Under the pieces are notes generated by a model. That model saw only the letters and a program-made list of their open reading frames with translations. It did no database searches and was not told the DNA's origin. A program made the position numbers and the translations under genes. From Eledone cirrhosa (taxonomy: Eukaryota): a stretch of 64,000 bases of DNA. Positions 1,321-29,255 of this stretch are shown here, in pieces. Within the stretch, counting starts at the first letter, position 1, and every line of letters starts with the position of its first letter. The DNA lies in contig OZ024754.1 in the NCBI GenBank assembly GCA_964016885.1, positions 25,358,001 through 25,422,000 on the forward strand, read 5' to 3'.

Positions 1321-1801
1321 CACGTTTGTTTACGAAAGGACAAACCGAGCATTATAATAAATTTTCGCTAATCTGATACATACATATATATATGTGTGCC
1401 TTTATGTATATATATATATACATGCTAATATTTAAGTAAGTGCCAGTGAAAAATTTCATTTCATTTCATGTTATTCTATTTTATCGTTTTCAGTGCTGAA
1501 ACTCACTAGATATGCAAATCAGGCTGCTCAGCCGTTAATTACCATAAGGAAAGTTCGAACCTTCGAAAGTTCAACCATCTGGCAGAAGGGTATACGGTGT
1601 TGACGATAGCTAACAAGCTTGAAACTAGTACATCGTTCCTGTGTCAGTATTGAACAAAAAGGTGACGTGGTTGCCTTAACACCGTACGGCATAAACCGAG
1701 CTGTCCGTTTGTTTACAAACTGACAAAGCGAGCATTATAATAAATGTTCGATAAACTGATACGTGATATATATATGTGTGCCTGTATATGTATATGTGTG
1801 C

Positions 1802-1876
<75 letters not shown>

Positions 1877-2282
1877 CTACTGCACGTCTATATGCATATA
1901 TGTATGTAAGTATACATACACACTTACATTTAAGTAAGTGACGTGCTAAGAGTGAGAAATTTCATTTCATTTCATTCTATTCCATTTTATCGTTTTCGGT
2001 ACGCCTGGCCGTTTGAACTCACTCGATATGCAAATTAGGCTGCTCAGCCGTTAATTTTCATAAGGAAAGTATATACTTTCAAACGTTCAACCATCTGGCA
2101 GAAGGTTATACGGTGCTGACGATAGCTAACAAGCTTGAAACTAGTACATCGTTCCTGTGTCAACGTTGAAAAAAAAGGTGTCGTGGTTGCCTTAACACCG
2201 TACGTTTATTTACAAACGGACAAAGCGAGCATTATAATAAATGTTTGCTAAACTGATATGTACATATATATATGTGTGCATT

Positions 2283-2333
<51 letters not shown>

Positions 2334-3194
2334 TACTGTACGTCTGTATGCATATATGTATGTACGTATACATACATACTTACATTTAAGTAAGTGAGTG
2401 AGAAATGAAATCTCATTTCATTCTATTCCATTTTATCGTTTCCGAGGCGCCTGGCCGACTGAACTCACTCGATATGCAAACTAGGCTGCTCAGCCGTTAA
2501 TTTTCATAAAGTATATACTTTTGAACGTTCAACCATCTGGCAGATGGGTATACGGTGCTGAGGATAGCTAACAAACTTGCAACTAGTACACCATTCCTGT
2601 GTCAGTGTTGAACAAAAAGTTGACGTGGTTGCCTTAACACCGTACGGCATAAATCAGGCTGTCCGTTTGTTTACAAAAGGACAAAGCGAGCATTATAATA
2701 AATTTTCGCTACATACATATATATATGTGTGCCTTTATGTATATATATATATACATGCTACTGTACGTCTGTATGCATATATGTATGTACGTATACATAC
2801 ATAATTACATTTAAGTAAGTGCCAGACTAAGAGTGAAAAATTTCATTTCATTTCATTGTATTCTATTTTTTTGTTTTCAGTGCGCCTGACCGACTGAACT
2901 CACTCGATATGCAAATTAGGCTGCTCAGCCGTTAATTATCATAAGTTCGAACCTTCGAACGTTCAACCATCTGGCAGAAGGGTATACGGTGCTGACGATA
3001 GTTAACAAGCTTGAAACTAGTACATCGTTCCTGTGTCAGTATTGAACAAAAAGGTGACGTGGTTGCCTTAACACCGTACGGCATAAACCAGGCTGTCCGT
3101 TTGTTTACAAACTGACAAAGCGAGCATTATAATAAATGTTCGTTAAACTGATACATAATATATATATGTGTGCCTGTATATATATATGTGTGCC

Positions 3195-3274
<80 letters not shown>

Positions 3275-3834
3275 CTACTGCACGTCTATATGCATATATG
3301 TATGTACGTATACATACATACTTACATTTAAGTAAGTGCCGTACAAAGAGTGAGAAATGAAATTTCATTTTATTCTATTACATTTTATCGTTTTCCATGC
3401 GCCTGGGCGCCTGAACTCACTCGATATGCAAATTAGGCTGCTCAGCCGTTAATTTTCATGAGGAAAGTATATACTTTCGAACGTTCAACTATCTGGCAGA
3501 AGGGTATACGGTGCTGACGATAGCTAACAAGCTTGAAACTAGTACATCGTTCCTGTGTCAGTGTTGAACAAAAAGGTGACGTGGTTACCTTAACACCGTA
3601 CGGCATAAATCAAGCTGTCCGTTTGTTTACAAACGGACACAGCGAGCATTATAATAAATGTTCGCTAAACTGATACTTACATATATATATATATGTGTCC
3701 CTGTATGTATATATACGTCTGTATGCATATATGTATGTACGTATACATACAAACTTACATTTAAGTAAGTGCCGTACAAAGAGTGAGAAATGAAACTTCA
3801 TTTCATTCTACTCCATTTTATCGTTTTTGGTGCG

Positions 3835-3835
3835 C

Positions 3836-3897
<62 letters not shown>

Positions 3898-3999
3898 GCA
3901 CACATATATATATTACGTATCAGTTTAACGCTTTGTCCTTTTGTAAACAAACGTACAGCCTGCTTTATGCCGTACGGTGTTAAGGCAACCACGTCAACT
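3835..3999 (-). repeat. Inverted satellite fragment fixed in one monomer of each HOR
   Basis: (TA)n-CAGGCACACA...GGCAACCACGTCAACT is the reverse complement of the monomer 3' part. It recurs at ~8549, 13245, 18407, 23099, 27761 and 29213. Confidence 0.93.
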
Positions 4000-4187
4000 G
4001 ACGATAGCTAACAAGCTTGAAACTAGTACATCGTTCCTGTGTCAGTGTTGAACAAAAAGGTGACGTGGTTACCTTAACACCGTACGGCATATATCAAGCT
4101 GTCCGTCTGTTTACAAATGGACAAAGCGAGCATTATAATAAATGTTCGCTAAACTGATACTTACATATATATATATATGTGTCCATG

Positions 4188-4232
<45 letters not shown>

Positions 4233-5566
4233 GCTACTGTACGTCTGTATGCATATATGCATGTACGTATACATACATACTTACATTTAAGTAAGTGCGG
4301 TACAAAGAGTGAGAAATGAAATTTCATTTCATTCTATTCCATTTTATCGTTTTCGAGGCGCCTGGCCGACTGAACTCACTCGATATGCAAATTAGGCTGC
4401 TCAGCCGTTAATTTTCATAAGGAAAGTATATACTTTCGAACGTTCAACCATCTGGTAGAAGGGTATACGGTGCTGACGATAGCTAACAAGCTTGAAACTA
4501 GTACACCGTTGCTGTGTCAGTGTGACCAAAAAGTTGACGTGGTTGCATTAACACCGTACGGCATAAATCAGGCTGTCCGTTTGTTTACAAAAGGACAAAG
4601 CGAGCATTATAATAAATGTTCGCTAATCTGATACGTACATATATATATGTGTGCCTTTATGTATATATATATATATATATATATATACATTCTACTGTAC
4701 GTCTGTATGCATATATGTATGTACGTATACATACATACTTACATTTAAGTAAGTGCCGTACAAAGAGTGAGAAATGAAATTTCATTTCATTCTATTCCAA
4801 TTTATCGTTTTCAGTGCGCCTGACCGACTGAACTCACTCGATATGCAAATCAGGCTGCTCAGCCGTTAATTTTCATAAGGAAAGTATATACTTTCGAACG
4901 TTCAACCATCTGGCAGAAGGGTATACGGTGCTGACGATAGCTAACAAGCTTGCAACTAGTACATCGTTCCTGTGTCAGTGTTGAACAAAAAGGCGACGTA
5001 GTTACCATAACACCGTACCGCATAAATCAAGCTGTCCGTTTGTTTACAAAAGGACAAAGCGTGCATTATAATAAATGTTCGCTAATCTGATACGTACATA
5101 TATATATGTGTGCCTTTATGTATATATATATATATACATGCTACTGTACGTCTGTATGCATATATGTATGTACGTATACATACATACTTACATTTAAGTA
5201 AGTGCCAGACTAAGAGTGAGAAATTTCATTTCATTTCATTCTATTCTATTTTTATCGTTTTCAGTGCGCCTGACCGACTGAACTCACTCGATATGCAAAT
5301 TAGGCTGCTCAGCCGTTAATTTTCATAAGGAAAGTATATACTTTCGAACGTTCAACCATCTTGCAGAAGGTTATACGGTGCTGACGATAGCTAACAAGCT
5401 TGAAACTAGTACATCGTTCCTGTGTCAACGTTGAACAAAAAGGTGACGTGGTTACCTTAACACCGTACGATATAATACAGGCTGTCCGTTTGTTTGCAAA
5501 CGGACAAAGCAAGCATTATAATAAATGTTTGCTAAACTGATATGTACATATATATATGTGTGCCTT

Positions 5567-5601
<35 letters not shown>

Positions 5602-5754
5602 GCTACTGTACGTCTGTATGCATATATGTATGTACGTATACACACATACTTACATTTAAGTAAGTGCCGTACTAAGAGTGAGAAATGAATTTTCATTTCA
5701 TTCTACTCCATTTTATCGTTTTTTGGTGCGCCTGGCCAACTGAACTCACTCGAT

Positions 5755-5762
5755 ATGCAAAT
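5755..5762 (+). promoter_or_regulatory. Octamer motif ATGCAAAT (present in most monomers)
   Basis: Exact POU/Oct octamer in CTCACTCGAT-ATGCAAAT-TAGG context. Function is not shown. Confidence 0.35.
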
Positions 5763-5811
5763 TAGGCTGCTCAGTCGTTAATTTTCATAAGGAAAGTATA
5801 TACTTTCGAAC

Positions 5812-5898
5812 GTTCAACCATCTGGCAGAAGGGTATACGGTGCTGACGATAGCTAACAAGCTTGAAACTAGTACATCGTTCCTGTGTCAGTGTTGAAC
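5812..5898 (+). ncRNA. Type I hammerhead ribozyme in the satellite monomer (representative copy; present in nearly all monomers)
   Basis: ACGGTG(5837-42)-CTGACGA(5843-49)-T AGCT AACA AGCT T-GAAA(5864-67)-C TA G-TA(5873)-CATCGT. Helix I is ACGGTG/CATCGT, extended by AGGG/TCCT, CTGGCA/TGTCAG and GTTCAAC/GTTGAAC. Predicted cleavage is after GUA at 5873. Confidence 0.82.
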
Positions 5899-5944
5899 AA
5901 AAAGGTGACGCGGTTGCCTTAACACCGTACGGCATAAACCAGGC

Positions 5945-5968
5945 TGTCCGTTTGTTTACAAACGGACA
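5945..5968. other. Perfect 11-bp inverted repeat (hairpin) in each monomer downstream of the ribozyme
   Basis: TGTCCGTTTGT-TT-ACAAACGGACA. Confidence 0.85.
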
Positions 5969-6039
5969 AAGCGAGCATTATAATAAATGTGCGTTAAACT
6001 GATACGTAATATATATATGTGTGCCTGTATATATATATA

Positions 6040-6088
<49 letters not shown>

Positions 6089-6511
6089 GCTACTGTACGT
6101 CTATATGCATATATGTATGTACGTATACATACATACTTACATTTAAGTCAGTGCCAGACTAAGAGTGAGAAATTTCATTTCATTTCATCCTATTCCATTT
6201 TATCGTTTTCGGTACGCCTGGCCGATTAAACTCACTCGATATGCAAATTAGGCTGCTCAGCCGTTAATTTTCATAAGGAAAGTATATACTTTCGAACGTT
6301 CAACCATCTGGCAGAAGGTTATACGGTGCTGACGATAGCTAACAAGCTTGAAACTAGTACATCGTTCCTGTGTCAACGTTGAACAAAAAGGTGACGTGGT
6401 TGCCTTAACACCGTACGATATAATACAGGCTGTCCGTTTGCTTACAAACGGACAAAGCGAGCATTATAATAAATGTTTGCTAAACTGATATGTACATATA
6501 TATTTGTGTGC

Positions 6512-6577
<66 letters not shown>

Positions 6578-6984
6578 GCTACTGTACGTCTGTATGCATA
6601 TATGTATGTACGTATACACACATACTTACATTTAAGTAAGTGCCGTACTAAGAGTGAGAAATGAATTTTCATTTCATTCTACTCCATTTTATCGTTTTTG
6701 GTGCGCCTGGCCAACTGAACTCACTCGATATGCAAATTAGGCTGCTCAGTCGTTAATTTTCATAAGGAAAGTATATACTTTCGAACGTTCAACCATCTGG
6801 CAGAAGGGTATACGGTGCTGACGATAGCTAACAAGCTTGAAACTAGTACATCGTTCCTGTGTCAACGTTGAAAAAAAAGGTGTCGTGGTTGCCTTAACAC
6901 CGTACGTTTATTTACAAACGGACAGAGCGAGCATTATAATAAATGTTTGCTAAACTGATATGTACATATATATATGTGTGCATT

Positions 6985-7035
<51 letters not shown>

Positions 7036-7904
7036 TACTGTACGTCTGTATGCATATATGTATGTACGTATACATACATACTTACATTTAAGTAAGTGAG
7101 TGAGAAATGAAATCTCATTTCATTCTATTCCATTTTATCGTTTTCGAGGCGCCTGGCCGACTGAACTCACTCGATATGCAAACTAGGCTGCTCAGCCGTT
7201 AATTTTCATAAAGTATATACTTTTGAACGTTCAACCATCTGGCAGATGGGTATACGGTGCTGAGGATAGCTAACAAACTTGCAACTAGTACACCATTCCT
7301 GTGTCAGTGTTGAACAAAAAGTTGACGTGGTTGCCTTAACACCGTACGGCATAAATCAGGCTGTCCGTTTGTTTACAAAAGGACAAAGCGAGCATTATAA
7401 TAAATTTTCGCTAATCTGATACATACATATATATATGTGTGCCTTTATGTATATATATATATACATGCTACTGTACGTCTGTATGCATATATGTATGTAC
7501 GTATACATACATAATTACATTTAAGTAAGTGCCAGACTAAGAGTGACAAATTTCATTTCATTTCATTGTATTCTATTTTTTTGTTTTCAGTGCGCCTGAC
7601 CGACTGAACTCACTCGATATGCAAATTAGGCTGCTCAGCCGTTAATTATCATAAGTTCGAACCTTCGAACGTTCAACCATCTGGCAGAAGGGTATACGGT
7701 GCTGACGATAGTTAACAAGCTTGAAACTAGTACATCGTTCCTGTGTCAGTATTGAACAAAAAGGTGACGTGGTTGCCTTAACACCGTACGGCATAAACCA
7801 GGCTGTCCGTTTGTTTACAAACTGACAAAGCGAGCATTATAATAAATGTTCGTTAAACTGATACATAATATATATATGTGTGCCTGTATATATATATGTG
7901 TGCC

Positions 7905-7988
<84 letters not shown>

Positions 7989-8549
7989 CTACTGCACGTC
8001 TATATGCATATATGTATGTACGTATACATACATACTTACATTTAAGTAAGTGCCGTACAAAGAGTGAGAAATGAAATTTCATTTTATTCTATTACATTTT
8101 ATCGTTTTCCATGCGCCTGGGCGCCTGAACTCACTCGATATGCAAATTAGGCTGCTCAGCCGTTAATTTTCATGAGGAAAGTATATACTTTCGAACGTTC
8201 AACTATCTGGCAGAAGGGTATACGGTGCTGACGATAGCTAACAAGCTTGAAACTAGTACATCGTTCCTGTGTCAGTGTTGAACAAAAAGGTGACGTGGTT
8301 ACCTTAACACCGTACGGCATAAATCAAGCTGTCCGTTTGTTTACAAACGGACACAGCGAGCATTATAATAAATGTTCGCTAAACTGATACTTACATATAT
8401 ATATATATGTGTCCCTGTATGTATATATACGTCTGTATGCATATATGTATGTACGTATACATACAAACTTACATTTAAGTAAGTGCCGTACAAAGAGTGA
8501 GAAATGAAACTTCATTTCATTCTACTCCATTTTATCGTTTTTGGTGCGC

Positions 8550-8613
<64 letters not shown>

Positions 8614-8903
8614 GCACACATATATATATTACGTATCAGTTTAACGCTTTGTCCTTTTGTAAACAAACGTACAGCCTGCTTTATGCCGTACGGTGTTAAG
8701 GCAACCACGTCAACTGACGATAGCTAACAAGCTTGAAACTAGTACATCGTTCCTGTGTCAGTGTTGAACAAAAAGGTGACGTGGTTACCTTAACACCGTA
8801 CGGCATATATCAAGCTGTCCGTCTGTTTACAAATGGACAAAGCGAGCATTATAATAAATGTTCGCTAAACTGATACTTACATATATATATATATGTGTCC
8901 CTG

Positions 8904-8948
<45 letters not shown>

Positions 8949-10282
8949 GCTACTGTACGTCTGTATGCATATATGCATGTACGTATACATACATACTTAC
9001 ATTTAAGTAAGTGCGGTACAAAGAGTGAGAAATGAAATTTCATTTCATTCTATTCCATTTTATCGTTTTCGAGGCGCCTGGCCGACTGAACTCACTCGAT
9101 ATGCAAATTAGGCTGCTCAGCCGTTAATTTTCATAAGGAAAGTATATACTTTCGAACGTTCAACCATCTGGTAGAAGGGTATACGGTGCTGACGATAGCT
9201 AACAAGCTTGAAACTAGTACACCGTTGCTGTGTCAGTGTGACCAAAAAGTTGACGTGGTTGCATTAACACCGTACGGCATAAATCAGGCTGTCCGTTTGT
9301 TTACAAAAGGACAAAGCGAGCATTATAATAAATGTTCGCTAATCTGATACGTACATATATATATGTGTGCCTTTATGTATATATATATATATATATATAT
9401 ATACATTCTACTGTACGTCTGTATGCATATATGTATGTACGTATACATACATACTTACATTTAAGTAAGTGCCGTACAAAGAGTGAGAAATGAAATTTCA
9501 TTTCATTCTATTCCAATTTATCGTTTTCAGTGCGCCTGACCGACTGAACTCACTCGATATGCAAATCAGGCTGCTCAGCCGTTAATTTTCATAAGGAAAG
9601 TATATACTTTCGAACGTTCAACCATCTGGCAGAAGGGTATACGGTGCTGACGATAGCTAACAAGCTTGCAACTAGTACATCGTTCCTGTGTCAGTGTTGA
9701 ACAAAAAGGCGACGTAGTTACCATAACACCGTACCGCATAAATCAAGCTGTCCGTTTGTTTACAAAAGGACAAAGCGTGCATTATAATAAATGTTCGCTA
9801 ATCTGATACGTACATATATATATGTGTGCCTTTATGTATATATATATATATACATGCTACTGTACGTCTGTATGCATATATGTATGTACGTATACATACA
9901 TACTTACATTTAAGTAAGTGCCAGACTAAGAGTGAGAAATTTCATTTCATTTCATTCTATTCTATTTTTATCGTTTTCAGTGCGCCTGACCGACTGAACT
10001 CACTCGATATGCAAATTAGGCTGCTCAGCCGTTAATTTTCATAAGGAAAGTATATACTTTCGAACGTTCAACCATCTTGCAGAAGGTTATACGGTGCTGA
10101 CGATAGCTAACAAGCTTGAAACTAGTACATCGTTCCTGTGTCAACGTTGAACAAAAAGGTGACGTGGTTACCTTAACACCGTACGATATAATACAGGCTG
10201 TCCGTTTGTTTGCAAACGGACAAAGCAAGCATTATAATAAATGTTTGCTAAACTGATATGTACATATATATATGTGTGCCTT

Positions 10283-10317
<35 letters not shown>

Positions 10318-10755
10318 GCTACTGTACGTCTGTATGCATATATGTATGTACGTATACACACATACTTACATTTAAGTAAGTGCCGTACTAAGAGTGAGAA
10401 ATGAATTTTCATTTCATTCTACTCCATTTTATCGTTTTTTGGTGCGCCTGGCCAACTGAACTCACTCGATATGCAAATTAGGCTGCTCAGTCGTTAATTT
10501 TCATAAGGAAAGTATATACTTTCGAACGTTCAACCATCTGGCAGAAGGGTATACGGTGCTGACGATAGCTAACAAGCTTGAAACTAGTACATCGTTCCTG
10601 TGTCAGTGTTGAACAAAAAGGTGACGCGGTTGCCTTAACACCGTACGGCATAAACCAGGCTGTCCGTTTGTTTACAAACGGACAAAGCGAGCATTATAAT
10701 AAATGTGCGTTAAACTGATACGTAATATATATATGTGTGCCTGTATATATATATA

Positions 10756-10818
<63 letters not shown>

Positions 10819-11241
10819 GCTACTGTACGTCTATATGCATATATGTATGTACGTATACATACATACTTACATTTAAGTCAGTGCCAGACTAAGAGTGAGA
10901 AATTTCATTTCATTTCATCCTATTCCATTTTATCGTTTTCGGTACGCCTGGCCGATTAAACTCACTCGATATGCAAATTAGGCTGCTCAGCCGTTAATTT
11001 TCATAAGGAAAGTATATACTTTCGAACGTTCAACCATCTGGCAGAAGGTTATACGGTGCTGACGATAGCTAACAAGCTTGAAACTAGTACATCGTTCCTG
11101 TGTCAACGTTGAACAAAAAGGTGACGTGGTTGCCTTAACACCGTACGATATAATACAGGCTGTCCGTTTGCTTACAAACGGACAAAGCGAGCATTATAAT
11201 AAATGTTTGCTAAACTGATATGTACATATATATTTGTGTGC

Positions 11242-11299
<58 letters not shown>

Positions 11300-11706
11300 G
11301 CTACTGTACGTCTGTATGCATATATGTATGTACGTATACACACATACTTACATTTAAGTAAGTGCCGTACTAAGAGTGAGAAATGAATTTTCATTTCATT
11401 CTACTCCATTTTATCGTTTTTGGTGCGCCTGGCCAACTGAACTCACTCGATATGCAAATTAGGCTGCTCAGTCGTTAATTTTCATAAGGAAAGTATATAC
11501 TTTCGAACGTTCAACCATCTGGCAGAAGGGTATACGGTGCTGACGATAGCTAACAAGCTTGAAACTAGTACATCGTTCCTGTGTCAACGTTGAAAAAAAA
11601 GGTGTCGTGGTTGCCTTAACACCGTACGTTTATTTACAAACGGACAGAGCGAGCATTATAATAAATGTTTGCTAAACTGATATGTACATATATATATGTG
11701 TGCATT

Positions 11707-11757
<51 letters not shown>

Positions 11758-12626
11758 TACTGTACGTCTGTATGCATATATGTATGTACGTATACATACA
11801 TACTTACATTTAAGTAAGTGAGTGAGAAATGAAATCTCATTTCATTCTATTCCATTTTATCGTTTTCGAGGCGCCTGGCCGACTGAACTCACTCGATATG
11901 CAAACTAGGCTGCTCAGCCGTTAATTTTCATAAAGTATATACTTTTGAACGTTCAACCATCTGGCAGATGGGTATACGGTGCTGAGGATAGCTAACAAAC
12001 TTGCAACTAGTACACCATTCCTGTGTCAGTGTTGAACAAAAAGTTGACGTGGTTGCCTTAACACCGTACGGCATAAATCAGGCTGTCCGTTTGTGTACAA
12101 AAGGACAAAGCGAGCATTATAATAAATTTTCGCTAATCTGATACATACATATATATATGTGTGCCTTTATGTATATATATATATACATGCTACTGTACGT
12201 CTGTATGCATATATGTATGTACGTATACATACATAATTACATTTAAGTAAGTGCCAGACTAAGAGTGAAAAATTTCATTTCATTTCATTGTATTCTATTT
12301 TATTGTTTTCAGTGCGCCTGACCGACTGAACTCACTCGATATGCAAATTAGGCTGCTCAGCCGTTAATTATCATAAGTTCGAACCTTCGAACGTTCAACC
12401 ATCTGGCAGAAGGGTATACGGTGCTGACGATAGTTAACAAGCTTGAAACTAGTACATCGTTCCTGTGTCAGTATTGAACAAAAAGGTGACGTGGTTGCCT
12501 TAACACCGTACGGCATAAACCAGGCTGTCCGTTTGTTTACAAACTGACAAAGCGAGCATTATAATAAATGTTCGTTAAACTGATACATAATATATATATG
12601 TGTGCCTGTATATATATATGTGTGCC

Positions 12627-12684
<58 letters not shown>

Positions 12685-13245
12685 CTACTGCACGTCTATA
12701 TGCATATATGTATGTACGTATACATACATACTTACATTTAAGTAAGTGCCGTACAAAGAGTGAGAAATGAAATTTCATTTTATTCTATTACATTTTATCG
12801 TTTTCCATGCGCCTGGGCGCCTGAACTCACTCGATATGCAAATTAGGCTGCTCAGCCGTTAATTTTCATGAGGAAAGTATATACTTTCGAACGTTCAACT
12901 ATCTGGCAGAAGGGTATACGGTGCTGACGATAGCTAACAAGCTTGAAACTAGTACATCGTTCCTGTGTCAGTGTTGAACAAAAAGGTGACGTGGTTACCT
13001 TAACACCGTACGGCATAAATCAAGCTGTCCGTTTGTTTACAAACGGACACAGCGAGCATTATAATAAATGTTCGCTAAACTGATACTTACATATATATAT
13101 ATATGTGTCCCTGTATGTATATATACGTCTGTATGCATATATGTATGTACGTATACATACAAACTTACATTTAAGTAAGTGCCGTACAAAGAGTGAGAAA
13201 TGAAACTTCATTTCATTCTACTCCATTTTATCGTTTTTGGTGCGC

Positions 13246-13287
<42 letters not shown>

Positions 13288-13575
13288 GCACACATATATA
13301 TTACGTATCAGTTTAACGCTTTGTCCTTTTGTAAACAAACGTACAGCCTGCTTTATGCCGTACGGTGTTAAGGCAACCACGTCAACTGACGATAGCTAAC
13401 AAGCTTGAAACTAGTACATCGTTCCTGTGTCAGTGTTGAACAAAAAGGTGACGTGGTTACCTTAACACCGTACGGCATAAATCAAGCTGTCCGTCTGTTT
13501 ACAAATGGACAAAGCGAGCATTATAATAAATGTTCGCTAAACTGATACTTACATATATATATATATGTGTCCCTG

Positions 13576-13630
<55 letters not shown>

Positions 13631-14959
13631 GCTACTGTACGTCTGTATGCATATATGCATGTACGTATACATACATACTTACATTTAAGTAAGTGCCGTA
13701 CAAAGAGTGAGAAATGAAATTTCATTTCATTCTATTCCATTTTATCGTTTTCGAGGCGCCTGGCCGACTGAACTCACTCGATATGCAAATTAGGCTGCTC
13801 AGCCGTTAATTTTCATAAGGAAAGTATATACTTTCGAACGTTCAACCATCTGGCAGAAGGATATACGGTGCTGACGATAGCTAACAAGCTTGAAACTAGT
13901 ACACCGTTGCTGTGTCAGTGTGACCAAAAAGTTGACGTGGTTGCATTAACACCGTACGGCATAAATCAGGCTGTCCGTTTGTTTACAAAAGGACAAAGCG
14001 AGCATTATAATAAATGTTCGCTAATCTGATACGTACATATATATATGTGTGCCTTTATGTATATATATATATATATATATACATTCTACTGTACGTCTGT
14101 ATGCATATATGTATGTACGTATACATACATACTTACATTTAAGTAAGTGCCGTACAAAGAGTGAGAAATGAAATTTCATTTCATTCTATTCCAATTTATC
14201 GTTTTCAGTGCGCCTGACCGACTGAACTCACTCGATATGCAAATTAGGCTGCTCAGCCGTTAATTTTCATAAGGAAAGTATATACTTTCGAACGTTCAAC
14301 CATCTGGCAGAAGGGTATACGGTGCTGACGATAGCTAACAAGCTTGAAACTAGTACATCGTTCCTGTGTCAGTGTTGAACAAAAAGGCGACGTAGTTACC
14401 ATAACACCGTACCGCATAAATCAAGCTGTCCGTTTGTTTACAAAAGGACAAAGCGTGCATTATAATAAATGTTCGCTAATCTGATACGTACATATATATA
14501 TGTGTGCCTTTATGTATATATATATATATACATGCTACTGTACGTCTGTATGCATATATGTATGTACGTATACATACATACTTACATTTAAGTAAGTGCC
14601 AGACTAAGAGTGAGAAATTTCATTTCATTTCATTCTATTCTATTTTTATCGTTTTCAGTGCGCCTGACCGACTGAACTCACTCGATATGCAAATTAGGCT
14701 GCTCAGCCGTTAATTTTCATAAGGAAAGTATATACTTTCGAACGTTCAACCATCTGGCAGAAGGGTATACGGTGCTGACGATAGCTAACAAGCTTGAAAC
14801 TAGTACACCGTTGCTGTGTCAGTGTGACCAAAAAGTTGACGTGGTTGCATTAACACCGTACGGCATAAATCAGGCTGTCCGTTTGTTTACAAAAGGACAA
14901 AGCGAGCATTATAATAAATGTTCGCTAATCTGATACGTACATATATATATGTGTGCCTT

Positions 14960-14994
<35 letters not shown>

Positions 14995-15870
14995 TCTACT
15001 GTACGTCTGTATGCATATATGTATGTACGTATACATACATACTTACATTTAAGTAAGTGCCGTACAAAGAGTGAGAAATGAAATTTCATTTCATTCTATT
15101 CCAATTTATCGTTTTCAGTGCGCCTGACCGACTGAACTCACTCGATATGCAAATTAGGCTGCTCAGCCGTTAATTTTCATAAGGAAAGTATATACTTTCG
15201 AACGTTCAACCATCTGGCAGAAGGGTATACGGTGCTGACGATAGCTAACAAGCTTGCAACTAGTACATCGTTCCTGTGTCAGTGTTGAACAAAAAGGCGA
15301 CGTAGTTACCATAACACCGTACCGCATAAATCAAGCTGTCCGTTTGTTTACAAAAGGACAAAGCGTGCATTATAATAAATGTTCGCTAATCTGATACGTA
15401 CATATATATATGTGTGCCTTTATGTATATATATATATATACATGCTACTGTACGTCTGTATGCATATATGTATGTACGTATACATACATACTTACATTTA
15501 AGTAAGTGCCAGACTAAGAGTGAGAAATTTCATTTCATTTCATTCTATTCTATTTTTATCGTTTTCAGTGCGCCTGACCGACTGAACTCACTCGATATGC
15601 AAATTAGGCTGCTCAGCCGTTAATTTTCATAAGGAAAGTATATACTTTCGAACGTTCAACCATCTTGCAGAAGGTTATACGGTGCTGACGATAGCTAACA
15701 AGCTTGAAACTAGTACATCGTTCCTGTGTCAACGTTGAACAAAAAGGTGACGTGGTTACCTTAACACCGTACGATATAATACAGGCTGTCCGTTTGTTTG
15801 CAAACGGACAAAGCAAGCATTATAATAAATGTTTGCTAAACTGATATGTACATATATATATGTGTGCCTT

Positions 15871-15931
<61 letters not shown>

Positions 15932-16369
15932 GCTACTGTACGTCTGTATGCATATATGTATGTACGTATACACACATACTTACATTTAAGTAAGTGCCGT
16001 ACTAAGAGTGAGAAATGAATTTTCATTTCATTCTACTCCATTTTATCGTTTTTTGGTGCGCCTGGCCAACTGAACTCACTCGATATGCAAATTAGGCTGC
16101 TCAGTCGTTAATTTTCATAAGGAAAGTATATACTTTCGAACGTTCAACCATCTGGCAGAAGGGTATACGGTGCTGACGATAGCTAACAAGCTTGAAACTA
16201 GTACATCGTTCCTGTGTCAGTGTTGAACAAAAAGGTGACGCGGTTGCCTTAACACCGTACGGCATAAACCAGGCTGTCCGTTTGTTTACAAACGGACAAA
16301 GCGAGCATTATAATAAATGTGCGTTAAACTGATACGTAATATATATATGTGTGCCTGTATATATATATA

Positions 16370-16418
<49 letters not shown>

Positions 16419-16844
16419 GCTACTGTACGTCTATATGCATATATGTATGTACGTATACATACATACTTACATTTAAGTCAGTGCCAGACTAAGAGTGAGA
16501 AATTTCATTTCATTTCATCCTATTCCATTTTATCGTTTTCGGTACGCCTGGCCGATTAAACTCACTCGATATGCAAATTAGGCTGCTCAGCCGTTAATTT
16601 TCATAAGGAAAGTATATACTTTCGAACGTTCAACCATCTGGCAGAAGGTTATACGGTGCTGACGATAGCTAACAAGCTTGAAACTAGTACATCGTTCCTG
16701 TGTCAACGTTGAACAAAAAGGTGACGTGGTTGCCTTAACACCGTACGATATAATACAGGCTGTCCGTTTGCTTACAAACGGACAAAGCGAGCATTATAAT
16801 AAATGTTTGCTAAACTGATATGTACATATATATATGTGTGCATT

Positions 16845-16903
<59 letters not shown>

Positions 16904-17772
16904 TACTGTACATCTGTATGCATATATGTATGTACGTATACATACATACTTACATTTAAGTAAGTGAGTGAGAAATGAAATCTCATTTCATTCTATTCCA
17001 TTTTATCGTTTTCGAGGCGCCTGGCCGACTGAACTCACTCGATATGCAAACTAGGCTGCTCAGCCGTTAATTTTCATAAAGTATATACTTTTGAACGTTC
17101 AACCATCTGGCAGATGGGTATACGGTGCTGAGGATAGCTAACAAACTTGCAACTAGTACACCATTCCTGTGTCAGTGTTGAACAAAAAGTTGACGTGGTT
17201 GCCTTAACACCGTACGGCATAAATCAGGCTGTCCGTTTGTTTACAAAAGGACAAAGCGAGCATTATAATAAATTTTCGCTAATCTGATACATACATATAT
17301 ATATGTGTGCCTTTATGTATATATATATATACATGCTACTGTACGTCTGTATGCATATATGTATGTACGTATACATACATAATTACATTTAAGTAAGTGC
17401 CAGACTAAGAGTGAAAAATTTCATTTCATTTCATTGTATTCTATTTTATTGTTTTCAGTGCGCCTGACCGACTGAACTCACTCGATATGCAAATTAGGCT
17501 GCTCAGCCGTTAATTATCATAAGTTCGAACCTTCGAACGTTCAACCATCTGGCAGAAGGATATACGGTGCTGACGATAGTTAACAAGCTTGAAACTAGTA
17601 CATCGTTCCTGTGTCAGTATTGAACAAAAAGGTGACGTGGTTGCCTTAACACCGTACGGCATAAACCAGGCTGTCCGTTTGTTTACAAACTGACAAAGCG
17701 AGCATTATAATAAATGTTCGTTAAACTGATACATAATATATATATGTGTGCCTGTATATATATATGTGTGCC

Positions 17773-17846
<74 letters not shown>

Positions 17847-18407
17847 CTACTGCACGTCTATATGCATATATGTATGTACGTATACATACATACTTACATT
17901 TAAGTAAGTGCCGTACAAAGAGTGAGAAATGAAATTTCATTTTATTCTATTACATTTTATCGTTTTCCATGCGCCTGGGCGCCTGAACTCACTCGATATG
18001 CAAATTAGGCTGCTCAGCCGTTAATTTTCATGAGGAAAGTATATACTTTCGAACGTTCAACTATCTGGCAGAAGGGTATACGGTGCTGACGATAGCTAAC
18101 AAGCTTGAAACTAGTACATCGTTCCTGTGTCAGTGTTGAACAAAAAGGTGACGTGGTTACCTTAACACCGTACGGCATAAATCAAGCTGTCCGTTTGTTT
18201 ACAAACGGACACAGCGAGCATTATAATAAATGTTCGCTAAACTGATACTTACATATATATATATATGTGTCCCTGTATGTATATATACGTCTGTATGCAT
18301 ATATGTATGTACGTATACATACAAACTTACATTTAAGTAAGTGCCGTACAAAGAGTGAGAAATGAAACTTCATTTCATTCTACTCCATTTTATCGTTTTT
18401 GGTGCGC

Positions 18408-18453
<46 letters not shown>

Positions 18454-18741
18454 GCACACATATATATTACGTATCAGTTTAACGCTTTGTCCTTTTGTAA
18501 ACAAACGTACAGCCTGCTTTATGCCGTACGGTGTTAAGGCAACCACGTCAACTGACGATAGCTAACAAGCTTGAAACTAGTACATCGTTCCTGTGTCAGT
18601 GTTGAACAAAAAGGTGACGTGGTTACCTTAACACCGTACGGCATAAATCAAGCTGTCCGTCTGTTTACAAATGGACAAAGCGAGCATTATAATAAATGTT
18701 CGCTAAACTGATACTTACATATATATATATATGTGTCCCTG

Positions 18742-18786
<45 letters not shown>

Positions 18787-20116
18787 GCTACTGTACGTCT
18801 GTATGCATATATGCATGTACGTATACATACATACTTACATTTAAGTAAGTGCCGTACAAAGAGTGAGAAATGAAATTTCATTTCATTCTATTCCATTTTA
18901 TCGTTTTCGAGGCGCCTGGCCGACTGAACTCACTCGATATGCAAATTAGGCTGCTCAGCCGTTAATTTTCATAAGGAAAGTATATACTTTCGAACGTTCA
19001 ACCATCTGGCAGAAGGATATACGGTGCTGACGATAGCTAACAAGCTTGAAACTAGTACACCGTTGCTGTGTCAGTGTGACCAAAAAGTTGACGTGGTTGC
19101 ATTAACACCGTACGGCATAAATCAGGCTGTCCGTTTGTTTACAAAAGGACAAAGCGAGCATTATAATAAATGTTCGCTAATCTGATACGTACATATATAT
19201 ATGTGTGCCTTTATGTATATATATATATATATATATACATTCTACTGTACGTCTGTATGCATATATGTATGTACGTATACATACATACTTACATTTAAGT
19301 AAGTGCCGTACAAAGAGTGAGAAATGAAATTTCATTTCATTCTATTCCAATTTATCGTTTTCAGTGCGCCTGACCGACTGAACTCACTCGATATGCAAAT
19401 TAGGCTGCTCAGCCGTTAATTTTCATAAGGAAAGTATATACTTTCGAACGTTCAACCATCTGGCAGAAGGGTATACGGTGCTGACGATAGCTAACAAGCT
19501 TGAAACTAGTACATCGTTCCTGTGTCAGTGTTGAACAAAAAGGCGACGTAGTTACCATAACACCGTACCGCATAAATCAAGCTGTCCGTTTGTTTACAAA
19601 AGGACAAAGCGTGCATTATAATAAATGTTCGCTAATCTGATACGTACATATATATATGTGTGCCTTTATGTATATATATATATATACATGCTACTGTACG
19701 TCTGTATGCATATATGTATGTACGTATACATACATACTTACATTTAAGTAAGTGCCAGACTAAGAGTGAGAAATTTCATTTCATTTCATTCTATTCTATT
19801 TTTATCGTTTTCAGTGCGCCTGACCGACTGAACTCACTCGATATGCAAATTAGGCTGCTCAGCCGTTAATTTTCATAAGGAAAGTATATACTTTCGAACG
19901 TTCAACCATCTTGCAGAAGGTTATACGGTGCTGACGATAGCTAACAAGCTTGAAACTAGTACATCGTTCCTGTGTCAACGTTGAACAAAAAGGTGACGTG
20001 GTTACCTTAACACCGTACGATATAATACAGGCTGTCCGTTTGTTTGCAAACGGACAAAGCAAGCATTATAATAAATGTTTGCTAAACTGATATGTACATA
20101 TATATATGTGTGCCTT

Positions 20117-20177
<61 letters not shown>

Positions 20178-20615
20178 GCTACTGTACGTCTGTATGCATA
20201 TATGTATGTACGTATACACACATACTTACATTTAAGTAAGTGCCGTACTAAGAGTGAGAAATGAATTTTCATTTCATTCTACTCCATTTTATCGTTTTTT
20301 GGTGCGCCTGGCCAACTGAACTCACTCGATATGCAAATTAGGCTGCTCAGTCGTTAATTTTCATAAGGAAAGTATATACTTTCGAACGTTCAACCATCTG
20401 GCAGAAGGGTATACGGTGCTGACGATAGCTAACAAGCTTGAAACTAGTACATCGTTCCTGTGTCAGTGTTGAACAAAAAGGTGACGCGGTTGCCTTAACA
20501 CCGTACGGCATAAACCAGGCTGTCCGTTTGTTTACAAACGGACAAAGCGAGCATTATAATAAATGTGCGTTAAACTGATACGTAATATATATATGTGTGC
20601 CTGTATATATATATA

Positions 20616-20660
<45 letters not shown>

Positions 20661-21083
20661 GCTACTGTACGTCTATATGCATATATGTATGTACGTATAC
20701 ATACATACTTACATTTAAGTCAGTGCCAGACTAAGAGTGAGAAATTTCATTTCATTTCATCCTATTCCATTTTATCGTTTTCGGTACGCCTGGCCGATTA
20801 AACTCACTCGATATGCAAATTAGGCTGCTCAGCCGTTAATTTTCATAAGGAAAGTATATACTTTCGAACGTTCAACCATCTGGCAGAAGGTTATACGGTG
20901 CTGACGATAGCTAACAAGCTTGAAACTAGTACATCGTTCCTGTGTCAACGTTGAACAAAAAGGTGACGTGGTTGCCTTAACACCGTACGATATAATACAG
21001 GCTGTCCGTTTGCTTACAAACGGACAAAGCGAGCATTATAATAAATGTTTGCTAAACTGATATGTACATATATATATGTGTGC

Positions 21084-21141
<58 letters not shown>

Positions 21142-21548
21142 GCTACTGTACGTCTGTATGCATATATGTATGTACGTATACACACATACTTACATTTAAG
21201 TAAGTGCCGTACTAAGAGTGAGAAATGAATTTTCATTTCATTCTACTCCATTTTATCGTTTTTGGTGCGCCTGGCCAACTGAACTCACTCGATATGCAAA
21301 TTAGGCTGCTCAGTCGTTAATTTTCATAAGGAAAGTATATACTTTCGAACGTTCAACCATCTGGCAGAAGGGTATACGGTGCTGACGATAGCTAACAAGC
21401 TTGAAACTAGTACATCGTTCCTGTGTCAACGTTGAAAAAAAAGGTGTCGTGGTTGCCTTAACACCGTACGTTTATTTACAAACGGACAAAGCGAGCATTA
21501 TAATAAATGTTTGCTAAACTGATATGTACATATATATATGTGTGCATT

Positions 21549-21589
<41 letters not shown>

Positions 21590-22458
21590 TACTGTACGTC
21601 TGTATGCATATATGTATGTACGTATACATACATACTTACATTTAAGTAAGTGAGTGAGAAATGAAATCTCATTTCATTCTATTCCATTTTATCGTTTTCG
21701 AGGCGCCTGGCCGACTGAACTCACTCGATATGCAAACTAGGCTGCTCAGCCGTTAATTTTCATAAAGTATATACTTTTGAACGTTCAACCATCTGGCAGA
21801 TGGGTATACGGTGCTGAGGATAGCTAACAAACTTGCAACTAGTACACCATTCCTGTGTCAGTGTTGAACAAAAAGTTGACGTGGTTGCCTTAACACCGTA
21901 CGGCATAAATCAGGCTGTCCGTTTGTTTACAAAAGGACAAAGCGAGCATTATAATAAATTTTCGCTAATCTGATACATACATATATATATGTGTGCCTTT
22001 ATGTATATATATATATACATGCTACTGTACGTCTGTATGCATATATGTATGTACGTATACATACATAATTACATTTAAGTAAGTGCCAGACTAAGAGTGA
22101 AAAATTTCATTTCATTTCATTGTATTCTATTTTATTGTTTTCAGTGCGCCTGACCGACTGAACTCACTCGATATGCAAATTAGGCTGCTCAGCCGTTAAT
22201 TATCATAAGTTCGAACCTTCGAACGTTCAACCATCTGGCAGAAGGATATACGGTGCTGACGATAGTTAACAAGCTTGAAACTAGTACATCGTTCCTGTGT
22301 CAGTATTGAACAAAAAGGTGACGTGGTTGCCTTAACACCGTACGGCATAAACCAGGCTGTCCGTTTGTTTACAAACTGACAAAGCGAGCATTATAATAAA
22401 TGTTCGTTAAACTGATACATAATATATATATGTGTGCCTGTATATATATATGTGTGCC

Positions 22459-22538
<80 letters not shown>

Positions 22539-23099
22539 CTACTGCACGTCTATATGCATATATGTATGTACGTATACATACATACTTACATTTAAGTAAG
22601 TGCCGTACAAAGAGTGAGAAATGAAATTTCATTTTATTCTATTACATTTTATCGTTTTCCATGCGCCTGGGCGCCTGAACTCACTCGATATGCAAATTAG
22701 GCTGCTCAGCCGTTAATTTTCATGAGGAAAGTATATACTTTCGAACGTTCAACTATCTGGCAGAAGGGTATACGGTGCTGACGATAGCTAACAAGCTTGA
22801 AACTAGTACATCGTTCCTGTGTCAGTGTTGAACAAAAAGGTGACGTGGTTACCTTAACACCGTACGGCATAAATCAAGCTGTCCGTTTGTTTACAAACGG
22901 ACACAGCGAGCATTATAATAAATGTTCGCTAAACTGATACTTACATATATATATATATGTGTCCCTGTATGTATATATACGTCTGTATGCATATATGTAT
23001 GTACGTATACATACAAACTTACATTTAAGTAAGTGCCGTACAAAGAGTGAGAAATGAAACTTCATTTCATTCTACTCCATTTTATCGTTTTTGGTGCGC

Positions 23100-23143
<44 letters not shown>

Positions 23144-23431
23144 GCACACATATATATTACGTATCAGTTTAACGCTTTGTCCTTTTGTAAACAAACGTAC
23201 AGCCTGCTTTATGCCGTACGGTGTTAAGGCAACCACGTCAACTGACGATAGCTAACAAGCTTGAAACTAGTACATCGTTCCTGTGTCAGTGTTGAACAAA
23301 AAGGTGACGTGGTTACCTTAACACCGTACGGCATAAATCAAGCTGTCCGTCTGTTTACAAATGGACAAAGCGAGCATTATAATAAATGTTCGCTAAACTG
23401 ATACTTACATATATATATATATGTGTCCCTG

Positions 23432-23478
<47 letters not shown>

Positions 23479-24808
23479 GCTACTGTACGTCTGTATGCAT
23501 ATATGCATGTACGTATACATACATACTTACATTTAAGTAAGTGCCGTACAAAGAGTGAGAAATGAAATTTCATTTCATTCTATTCCATTTTATCGTTTTC
23601 GAGGCGCCTGGCCGACTGAACTCACTCGATATGCAAATTAGGCTGCTCAGCCGTTAATTTTCATAAGGAAAGTATATACTTTCGAACGTTCAACCATCTG
23701 GCAGAAGGATATACGGTGCTGACGATAGCTAACAAGCTTGAAACTAGTACACCGTTGCTGTGTCAGTGTGACCAAAAAGTTGACGTGGTTGCATTAACAC
23801 CGTACGGCATAAATCAGGCTGTCCGTTTGTTTACAAAAGGACAAAGCGAGCATTATAATAAATGTTCGCTAATCTGATACGTACATATATATATGTGTGC
23901 CTTTATGTATATATATATATATATATATACATTCTACTGTACGTCTGTATGCATATATGTATGTACGTATACATACATACTTACATTTAAGTAAGTGCCG
24001 TACAAAGAGTGAGAAATGAAATTTCATTTCATTCTATTCCAATTTATCGTTTTCAGTGCGCCTGACCGACTGAACTCACTCGATATGCAAATTAGGCTGC
24101 TCAGCCGTTAATTTTCATAAGGAAAGTATATACTTTCGAACGTTCAACCATCTGGCAGAAGGGTATACGGTGCTGACGATAGCTAACAAGCTTGAAACTA
24201 GTACATCGTTCCTGTGTCAGTGTTGAACAAAAAGGCGACGTAGTTACCATAACACCGTACCGCATAAATCAAGCTGTCCGTTTGTTTACAAAAGGACAAA
24301 GCGTGCATTATAATAAATGTTCGCTAATCTGATACGTACATATATATATGTGTGCCTTTATGTATATATATATATATACATGCTACTGTACGTCTGTATG
24401 CATATATGTATGTACGTATACATACATACTTACATTTAAGTAAGTGCCAGACTAAGAGTGAGAAATTTCATTTCATTTCATTCTATTCTATTTTTATCGT
24501 TTTCAGTGCGCCTGACCGACTGAACTCACTCGATATGCAAATTAGGCTGCTCAGCCGTTAATTTTCATAAGGAAAGTATATACTTTCGAACGTTCAACCA
24601 TCTTGCAGAAGGTTATACGGTGCTGACGATAGCTAACAAGCTTGAAACTAGTACATCGTTCCTGTGTCAACGTTGAACAAAAAGGTGACGTGGTTACCTT
24701 AACACCGTACGATATAATACAGGCTGTCCGTTTGTTTGCAAACGGACAAAGCAAGCATTATAATAAATGTTTGCTAAACTGATATGTACATATATATATG
24801 TGTGCCTT

Positions 24809-24865
<57 letters not shown>

Positions 24866-25303
24866 GCTACTGTACGTCTGTATGCATATATGTATGTACG
24901 TATACACACATACTTACATTTAAGTAAGTGCCGTACTAAGAGTGAGAAATGAATTTTCATTTCATTCTACTCCATTTTATCGTTTTTTGGTGCGCCTGGC
25001 CAACTGAACTCACTCGATATGCAAATTAGGCTGCTCAGTCGTTAATTTTCATAAGGAAAGTATATACTTTCGAACGTTCAACCATCTGGCAGAAGGGTAT
25101 ACGGTGCTGACGATAGCTAACAAGCTTGAAACTAGTACATCGTTCCTGTGTCAGTGTTGAACAAAAAGGTGACGCGGTTGCCTTAACACCGTACGGCATA
25201 AACCAGGCTGTCCGTTTGTTTACAAACGGACAAAGCGAGCATTATAATAAATGTGCGTTAAACTGATACGTAATATATATATGTGTGCCTGTATATATAT
25301 ATA

Positions 25304-25348
<45 letters not shown>

Positions 25349-25771
25349 GCTACTGTACGTCTATATGCATATATGTATGTACGTATACATACATACTTAC
25401 ATTTAAGTCAGTGCCAGACTAAGAGTGAGAAATTTCATTTCATTTCATCCTATTCCATTTTATCGTTTTCGGTACGCCTGGCCGATTAAACTCACTCGAT
25501 ATGCAAATTAGGCTGCTCAGCCGTTAATTTTCATAAGGAAAGTATATACTTTCGAACGTTCAACCATCTGGCAGAAGGTTATACGGTGCTGACGATAGCT
25601 AACAAGCTTGAAACTAGTACATCGTTCCTGTGTCAACGTTGAACAAAAAGGTGACGTGGTTGCCTTAACACCGTACGATATAATACAGGCTGTCCGTTTG
25701 CTTACAAACGGACAAAGCGAGCATTATAATAAATGTTTGCTAAACTGATATGTACATATATATATGTGTGC

Positions 25772-25817
<46 letters not shown>

Positions 25818-26224
25818 GCTACTGTACGTCTGTATGCATATATGTATGTACGTATACACACATACTTACATTTAAGTAAGTGCCGTACTAAGAGTGAGAA
25901 ATGAATTTTCATTTCATTCTACTCCATTTTATCGTTTTTGGTGCGCCTGGCCAACTGAACTCACTCGATATGCAAATTAGGCTGCTCAGTCGTTAATTTT
26001 CATAAGGAAAGTATATACTTTCGAACGTTCAACCATCTGGCAGAAGGGTATACGGTGCTGACGATAGCTAACAAGCTTGAAACTAGTACATCGTTCCTGT
26101 GTCAACGTTGAAAAAAAAGGTGTCGTGGTTGCCTTAACACCGTACGTTTATTTACAAACGGACAAAGCGAGCATTATAATAAATGTTTGCTAAACTGATA
26201 TGTACATATATATATGTGTGCATT

Positions 26225-26265
<41 letters not shown>

Positions 26266-27134
26266 TACTGTACGTCTGTATGCATATATGTATGTACGTA
26301 TACATACATACTTACATTTAAGTAAGTGAGTGAGAAATGAAATCTCATTTCATTCTATTCCATTTTATCGTTTTCGAGGCGCCTGGCCGACTGAACTCAC
26401 TCGATATGCAAACTAGGCTGCTCAGCCGTTAATTTTCATAAAGTATATACTTTTGAACGTTCAACCATCTGGCAGATGGGTATACGGTGCTGAGGATAGC
26501 TAACAAACTTGCAACTAGTACACCATTCCTGTGTCAGTGTTGAACAAAAAGTTGACGTGGTTGCCTTAACACCGTACGGCATAAATCAGGCTGTCCGTTT
26601 GTTTACAAAAGGACAAAGCGAGCATTATAATAAATTTTCGCTAATCTGATACATACATATATATATGTGTGCCTTTATGTATATATATATATACATGCTA
26701 CTGTACGTCTGTATGCATATATGTATGTACGTATACATACATAATTACATTTAAGTAAGTGCCAGACTAAGAGTGAAAAATTTCATTTCATTTCATTGTA
26801 TTCTATTTTATTGTTTTCAGTGCGCCTGACCGACTGAACTCACTCGATATGCAAATTAGGCTGCTCAGCCGTTAATTATCATAAGTTCGAACCTTCGAAC
26901 GTTCAACCATCTGGCAGAAGGGTATACGGTGCTGACGATAGTTAACAAGCTTGAAACTAGTACATCGTTCCTGTGTCAGTATTGAACAAAAAGGTGACGT
27001 GGTTGCCTTAACACCGTACGGCATAAACCAGGCTGTCCGTTTGTTTACAAACTGACAAAGCGAGCATTATAATAAATGTTCGTTAAACTGATACATAATA
27101 TATATATGTGTGCCTGTATATATATATGTGTGCC

Positions 27135-27200
<66 letters not shown>

Positions 27201-27761
27201 CTACTGCACGTCTATATGCATATATGTATGTACGTATACATACATACTTACATTTAAGTAAGTGCCGTACAAAGAGTGAGAAATGAAATTTCATTTTATT
27301 CTATTACATTTTATCGTTTTCCATGCGCCTGGGCGCCTGAACTCACTCGATATGCAAATTAGGCTGCTCAGCCGTTAATTTTCATGAGGAAAGTATATAC
27401 TTTCGAACGTTCAACTATCTGGCAGAAGGGTATACGGTGCTGACGATAGCTAACAAGCTTGAAACTAGTACATCGTTCCTGTGTCAGTGTTGAACAAAAA
27501 GGTGACGTGGTTACCTTAACACCGTACGGCATAAATCAAGCTGTCCGTTTGTTTACAAACGGACACAGCGAGCATTATAATAAATGTTCGCTAAACTGAT
27601 ACTTACATATATATATATATGTGTCCCTGTATGTATATATACGTCTGTATGCATATATGTATGTACGTATACATACAAACTTACATTTAAGTAAGTGCCG
27701 TACAAAGAGTGAGAAATGAAACTTCATTTCATTCTACTCCATTTTATCGTTTTTGGTGCGC

Positions 27762-27807
<46 letters not shown>

Positions 27808-28097: not shown

Positions 28098-28136
<39 letters not shown>

Positions 28137-28574: not shown

Positions 28575-28650
<76 letters not shown>

Positions 28651-29213: not shown

Positions 29214-29255
<42 letters not shown>

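What the first reader, a model, noticed from the sequence alone, without database searches (positions are those of the whole stretch)
5864..5873. Palindromic mini helix III predicts cleavage as a double (dimeric) hammerhead
Seen: GAA-ACTAGT-A gives only A-U plus one C-G pair with a 2-nt loop in cis, but ACUAGU is self-complementary. Established: minimal type I hammerheads in newt satellite 2 and in PLEs cleave efficiently as dimers through palindromic helix III. Inference: the tandem arrangement is itself needed for catalysis, tying array structure to function.
Basis: partly seen in the sequence, partly recalled or inferred. Interest (0 to 1): 0.7.

Follow-up and report, generated by a model that had tools for sequence, protein, structure and literature searches.

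The report
Paired-cutting hammerhead in retrozyme satellite
Each unit of this tandem repeat carries a hammerhead-type RNA motif whose third stem is too short to fold alone but is self-complementary, so it likely cuts best when two neighbouring copies pair up, a mechanism already described for newt and related repeats.

Summary
GAAACTAGTA (5864-5873) belongs to a complete type I hammerhead, repeated in 93 units of a ~450-520-bp non-LTR retrozyme, with 13,610 genome copies of the motif. Helix III is one A-U pair plus the palindrome CUAG.

Support for pairing: of 61,543 genomic hammerheads of this layout, at least 96.9% have a palindromic centre, though a few young families dominate that count. 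Sister families switch both central bases together (CUAG, CGCG, CAUG). Modelled double hammerheads beat closed single ones by 11-17 kcal/mol in 12 of 12 neighbour pairs.

The mechanism is already in print for newt and axolotl repeats and for Penelope-like elements.

Limits: this is an extended hammerhead, not a minimal one, and such motifs can cleave as monomers. Pairing needs two copies, not 70. The long array is a DNA-amplified higher-order satellite with 29 of 93 copies damaged. Cleavage and expression are untested.

Side findings: two-armed insertions into (TA)n and A-to-G-scarred copies. This scan noted both before on other DNA of this genome.

The parts
5864..5873 (+). GAA + palindrome ACTAGT (A15.1, C15.2, U, A, G16.2, U16.1; 5867-5872) + A17; predicted cut between 5873 and 5874
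5843..5863 (+). catalytic box CTGACGA, U.U mismatch, helix II AGC/GCT, loop 2 TAACAA
5822..5842 (+). 5' strand of extended helix I: 6 bp, 2-nt gap, 4 bp, TAT bulge (5834-5836), 6 bp next to the core
5874..5890 (+). 3' strand of extended helix I
5874..6359 (+). one 486-nt unit from cut site to cut site (predicted linear or circular monomer RNA); holds a (TA)n tract at about 6009-6085; next hammerhead core at 6329 is the predicted pairing partner
1321..34390 (+). array of 70 hammerhead units, 10-unit higher-order repeat of about 4.7 kb; 52 of 70 pass all integrity checks
51770..64000 (-). second array, 23 units in the window on the opposite strand, running on past the window end; 12 of 23 pass all checks
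33680..33685 (+). single natural palindrome-breaking copy ACTTGT

Best explanation
The motif is the palindromic mini helix III of an extended type I hammerhead in a tandem, dispersed repeat of the non-LTR retrozyme kind, and it likely cleaves efficiently only when two copies pair into a double hammerhead. Shown: the motif, the tandem units, the dispersal, and the compensatory retention of the palindrome. Inferred: in a read-through transcript two neighbouring ACUAGU pair into one 6-bp helix III and the helix I strands swap partners. Both sites are then cut, releasing one unit whose ends are held together by the inner helix I. A host ligase would close it to a circle, which has one hammerhead and so would be slow to recut. 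The circle would be copied back into (TA)n sites, likely by a Penelope-like reverse transcriptase. The long array in this window grew further at the DNA level and is not itself explained by the ribozyme.
For: In-cis helix III is unfavourable. The double form is 10.6-17.5 kcal/mol below two closed singles in 12 of 12 distinct neighbour pairs (the first 12 distinct of 32 intact pairs), and below two singles with helix III left open in 11 of 12. The ACUUGU copy loses most of that gain (+0.4 and -2.3 versus -4.4). Genome-wide, 61,543 matches to core-N12-17-GAAAC-NN-GTH (control 256) include at most 1,926 with a non-complementary centre. With both central bases changed there are 20,209 matches; the first 100 listed are 95 CGCG, 4 CATG and 1 CACG. 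The CATG family is homologous to the window unit over 300-400 nt in 3 of its 5 loci fetched (64-67%, E 1e-25 to 1e-33). In 13 representatives the central pair is complementary in 13 of 13, 5 by double change, while N7, N17 and loop 2 vary. Published parallel: axolotl HHR_Amex1 has one pair plus a palindromic tetraloop, cleaves 6% as monomer and much better as dimer.
Against: No cleavage or expression data. The extended helix I with a 3-nt bulge and the invariant loop-2 letters are present, and newt monomers with such extensions were reported to cleave. The double form lies 4.7-9.2 kcal/mol above the free minimum in all 12 pairs, and the trans helix III has ensemble probability only 0.005 for the 5843/6329 pair (0.48 and 0.998 in two sister families). 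The genome counts are dominated by a few young families; only three palindromic states are seen at family level, so about two independent switches. Non-palindromic copies were amplified in local runs, CUGG occurs in a 6-copy array and three dispersed loci, and the 5 CATG loci fetched had no second intact copy of that family within 600 bp. In Xenopus only 1 of 9 retrozyme dimers cleaved in vitro. A PLE hammerhead needed protein and was dispensable for insertion in vitro.
Confidence: 0.7

Rival explanations
1. The extended single hammerhead is sufficient: loop 1-loop 2 contacts or a protein stabilise the core so each copy cleaves alone during transcription, and the palindrome only adds an optional dimer route.
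For: Long bulged helix I in 8 of 9 representatives folded, and invariant U-A-A and last A of loop 2. The local helix I is made first during transcription (inference). Monomer cleavage by extended newt hammerheads is reported (PMC6155905 passage). Axolotl monomers reach 6% and 22% in one hour.
Against: It does not predict that the two central bases change only in complementary pairs across families. No high-copy family with a non-complementary centre appeared in the four listings of 100.
Confidence: 0.2
2. At this locus the ribozyme is a passenger: the array is satellite DNA grown by unequal crossing-over, and the palindrome is inherited from the founding retrozyme without current function.
For: A 10-unit higher-order repeat; 29 of 93 copies fail an integrity check, and damaged classes recur with the higher-order period. 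The locus has a near-identical duplicate about 285-300 kb upstream. This can be true together with the best explanation, which concerns the family.
Against: 64 of 93 copies are intact and 32 adjacent intact pairs exist on the + array, so any read-through transcript could form dimers.
Confidence: 0.1

Closest known systems
Metazoan non-LTR retrozymes, especially axolotl HHR_Amex1 / newt satellite 2 (PMC7229834, parts 1-4 of 6 read)
   Same: Type I hammerhead once per tandem unit, low GC, no protein-coding frame, single-pair helix III with palindromic tetraloop. The U.U mismatch at the base of helix II matches HHR_Amex2.
   Different: Unit 450-520 bp versus 170-400 nt, with an internal (TA)n tract. 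The paper says most invertebrate motifs have a more stable helix III and cleave as monomers. RNA circles were not tested here.
PLE minimal and palindromic hammerheads (PMC4209133, parts 1-2 of 4 read; PMC6765202, passages)
   Same: Palindromic positions 15.2-16.2 and loop 3; dimer model; the review states that tandem layout appears necessary for efficient cleavage.
   Different: Here helix I is long and bulged and helix II short, as in canonical motifs, and the motif is not in the repeats of the PLE copies in this window.
Penelope-like element insertion signature (PMC11167929, parts 1-2 of 4 read; PMC8557442, passages)
   Same: Inverted 5' arm, two fixed end points some tens of bases apart (tail), AT-rich or (TA)n targets.
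   Different: Seen here on a non-coding repeat; the driving element was not identified.

Membership tests
Type I hammerhead ribozyme | core CUGANGA ... GAAA ... NUH around three helices, helix I open-ended | tested here: met
Type I hammerhead ribozyme | covarying helices I and II | tested here: met
   5 of 6 helix I pairs and 4 of 4 helix II pairs show double changes in 13 representatives; the first helix II pair is unpaired in 8 of 13
Type I hammerhead ribozyme | match to an Rfam hammerhead model | tested here: inconclusive
   no match; the very short helix III may explain it (inference)
Type I hammerhead ribozyme | site-specific self-cleavage | not testable with these tools
   needs an in vitro assay
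Dimeric (double) hammerhead | unstable in-cis helix III with palindromic sequence | tested here: met
Dimeric (double) hammerhead | palindrome kept by compensatory change | tested here: met
   about two independent switches
Dimeric (double) hammerhead | dimer cleaves much better than monomer | not testable with these tools
   only folding energies
PLE minimal hammerhead (min-HHR) | short helix I with poorly defined loop 1, long helix II, location in a PLE pLTR | tested here: not met
   16-bp bulged helix I, 3-bp helix II, non-coding tandem unit
Non-LTR retrozyme | tandem units of a few hundred bp with one type I hammerhead each, GC below 45-50%, no ORF | tested here: met
Non-LTR retrozyme | dispersed copies from monomers to multimers | tested here: met
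   13,610 matches to the family motif; loci on several contigs
Non-LTR retrozyme | passage through an RNA intermediate | tested here: inconclusive
   indirect: 9 of 9 fixed differences of array L089 are A-to-G on the ribozyme strand; one more A-to-G-rich copy, L091
Non-LTR retrozyme | expressed as linear and circular unit-length RNA | not testable with these tools
   needs RNA data from this organism

The most novel reading that the evidence does not exclude
In this genome every abundant tandem hammerhead family is an obligate pair-cutter whose palindrome works as a family-specific address (CUAG, CGCG, CAUG do not cross-pair). Cutting happens only in concatemers, the released circle is protected and exposed to A-to-I editing, and it is then copied round and round from two fixed start points onto both ends of a cut in (TA)n by a Penelope-type enzyme. 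The arrays would be a fossil record of the whole retrozyme cycle.
Probability: 0.3. Interest if true: 0.6.

Novelty: new member of a known kind. Interest (0 to 1): 0.27.

Why it matters
The dimer mechanism itself is established, so the finding adds a member, not a principle. Its value is comparative: tens of thousands of copies in several families show natural compensatory palindrome swaps, which give ready-made matched and mismatched pairs to test whether dimer cleavage is required when the extended tertiary contacts are present. That point is unsettled between the newt dimer and monomer results. The side evidence (two-armed insertions, A-to-G scars) bears on how retrozymes are mobilised, which the 2026 preprint calls unresolved.

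Tried and rejected
Rfam: no hammerhead match. Sequencing runs: no RNA holder listed; contigs of run X1 showed no variant at 5864-5873 at the 5% threshold, and X4 laid nothing; neither bears on expression. Idea that the hammerhead belongs to the PLE copies in mid-window: rejected, no canonical motif there. Apparent non-palindromic family CAGG: 10 loci fetched show a longer helix III (CAGG-6 nt-CCTG) that folds in cis, with no direct tandem copy within 600 bp; helix I is variable, so it is only a weak control. Within-family palindrome retention, 13,351 of 13,610, was not used as evidence of selection, because the pattern picks young copies. General editing excess at the palindrome's A: not found; CTGG and its strand mirror CCAG are about equal on contig C1 (18 versus 19, counted by eye). 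A search for families with longer loop 3 was uninformative, its listing being filled by the same families. The protein search with the mid-window ORF gave no clade or host name. A paper search for a newt snRNA-type promoter found nothing relevant. Lunse et al. 2017 was not held.

Full report
Observation. Bases 5864-5873 read GAAACTAGTA. They are the 3' part of a type I hammerhead: helix I 5837-5842 with 5874-5879, core CTGACGA at 5843, a U.U mismatch and a 3-bp helix II with loop TAACAA, then GAA, ACTAGT and A17. Helix I extends outward through a 3-nt bulge by 4 and 6 more pairs. ViennaRNA disallows the 2-nt loop, charges +5.4 kcal/mol for closing A-U around CUAG, and gives the ACUAGU self-duplex -4.8 kcal/mol. 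The descriptor found 0 hits in 3.9 Mb of shuffled unit. Rfam found no hammerhead.

Context in the window. There are 93 copies: 70 on the + strand (about 1.3-34.4 kb) and 23 on the - strand (from about 51.8 kb). Units are mostly 430-530 bp and contain a (TA)n tract. The + array is a 10-unit higher-order repeat. 91 of 93 copies keep the palindrome, but only 64 of 93 pass all checks on core, helix I, helix II and palindrome, and the damaged classes recur with the higher-order period. Between the arrays lie Penelope-like copies. Pfam gave RVT_1 and GIY-YIG for 47136-48491, a sub-threshold RVT_1 and a GIY-YIG for 49018-50706, and nothing for the two other ORFs given. No canonical hammerhead was found in that region.

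Genome. The window lies on contig C14 of a 3.0-Gb assembly; I did not determine the clade. The family motif has 13,610 exact matches, 13,351 with CTAG. A looser pattern, core-N12-17-GAAAC-NN-GTH, has 61,543 matches against 256 for the backward control. Non-complementary centres number at most 505 + 397 + 479 + 545 = 1,926, with four dinucleotides counted twice, so at least 96.9% are palindromic. Those listed are mostly single-base variants of the palindromic families. With both central bases changed there are 20,209 matches; the first 100 are 95 CGCG, 4 CATG and 1 CACG. CATG dominates the listing. The pattern fixes C15.2 and G16.2, so families with another pair there were not examined.

Covariation. 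I aligned 13 representatives, chosen by me, all with a 14-nt helix II region; a 16-nt CATG form and loci without helix I were left out. 95.3% of cells pair (shuffled 67.7%, slid 24-47%), 10 of 13 pairs show double changes, and the central pair of the palindrome is UA in 8, GC in 4 and AU in 1, never unpaired. The representatives are related, so this is about two independent switches. The CATG family is homologous to the window unit over 300-400 nt at 64-67% in L061, L062 and L063, over short pieces in L064, and at 68% in L065. The CGCG family (310-bp unit) resembles the window unit only at the ribozyme.

Energetics. For 12 distinct intact neighbour pairs (the first 12 distinct of 32), the constrained double hammerhead is 10.6-17.5 kcal/mol below two singles with helix III closed. 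It is below two singles with helix III open in 11 of 12, but 4.7-9.2 above the free minimum in all 12. For 5843/6329 the trans helix III has ensemble probability 0.005; it is 0.998 in the 310-bp and 0.48 in the 467-bp family. The model ignores tertiary contacts and co-transcriptional kinetics.

Results against. The extended helix I is present in 8 of 9 representatives folded, and a review states that newt monomers with such extensions also cleave (PMC6155905, passages). Non-palindromic copies occur in local runs. CUGG, which can still self-pair by wobbles (-3.2 kcal/mol), fills a 6-copy array and three dispersed loci. Only 1 of 9 Xenopus dimers cleaved in vitro (bioRxiv 10.64898/2026.07.22.740005, parts 1-3 of 5 read). 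From memory, not from a call: CUUG can form an unusually stable loop in some contexts, so ACUUGU may not be a clean null for the monomer.

Comparison with print. PMC7229834 (parts 1-4 of 6) describes this architecture in axolotl and shows dimers outperform monomers. PMC4209133 (parts 1-2 of 4) lists the palindromic nature of 15.2-16.2 and loop 3, and gives the rationale that monomeric circles avoid recutting. PMC6765202 (passages) states that tandem layout appears necessary for efficient cleavage. PMC7761336 (passages) says most invertebrate motifs cleave as monomers. Forster 1988, Epstein and Pabon-Pena 1991 and Lunse 2017 I saw only as citations. No supplements were opened.

Side findings. 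Dispersed insertions are often two divergent arms. In 5 of 5 such insertions of the 310-bp family examined, one arm ends at unit position 139 and the other at 165 (170 in one), both flanked by (TA)n. In the window's family a rough classifier gave opposite end classes in 6 of 9 loci with both arms classed, the same class in 3; two of those three look misclassed by eye, and one is convergent. This resembles the PLE tail (PMC11167929, parts 1-2 of 4; PMC8557442, passages). Array L089 differs from 9 units of two related loci at 9 fixed sites in all 5 complete units, all A-to-G on the ribozyme strand, 7 of 9 after U. L091 shows 15 A-to-G versus 2 T-to-C. That is 2 of 21 CTGG loci, against 0 of 20 mirror CCAG loci with a T-to-C cluster. 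A search for retrozyme plus ADAR returned one unrelated review. I found these before the look-up, but earlier AI notes of this scan report both features on other DNA of this genome.

Verdict. The feature is real and the dimer reading is probable (0.7) but known. The claim that the long array exists for catalysis is not supported. New member of a known kind; interest 0.27.

Noticed in passing
L078, L085-L088 (310-bp family); L015, L016, L077, L079, L082, L083 (window's family and relatives): Insertions with two divergent arms ending at two fixed unit positions and flanked by (TA)n, like the PLE tail; suggests priming from both DNA ends on one RNA.
   Followed up: partly
L089 (G000:C2:78934000-78938000); L091: Copies scarred by clustered A-to-G changes on the ribozyme strand; in L089 all complete units share them, as expected from rolling-circle copying of one edited RNA.
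   Followed up: partly
window 34387-46553: Tandem and inverted copies (96-98% alike) of a Penelope-like element with a 593-aa frame at 44417-46198 that reads by eye as RT plus C-terminal GIY-YIG-like domain; no Pfam hit; other copies frameshifted; begins in the (TA)n tract of the last array unit.
   Followed up: partly
window 47136-48491 (-) and 49018-50706 (+): Two further, different RT / GIY-YIG (Penelope-like) elements; clades not determined.
   Followed up: no
window 5755-5762 and 77 other units: ATGCAAAT about 90 bp upstream of the core in most units, also in the 467-bp family. I recall it as the octamer of snRNA-type promoters; no paper found.
   Followed up: partly
G000:C14:25077095-25116519: Near-identical duplicate of both arrays about 285-300 kb upstream of the window.
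   Followed up: no
L051-L060: Small dispersed family whose hammerhead has a 5-pair helix III with a CUAG-containing loop, in short inverted insertions without direct tandem copies.
   Followed up: partly
window 1-1320: Very AT-rich degenerate repeat of about 22-25 bp period abutting the start of the array.
   Followed up: no
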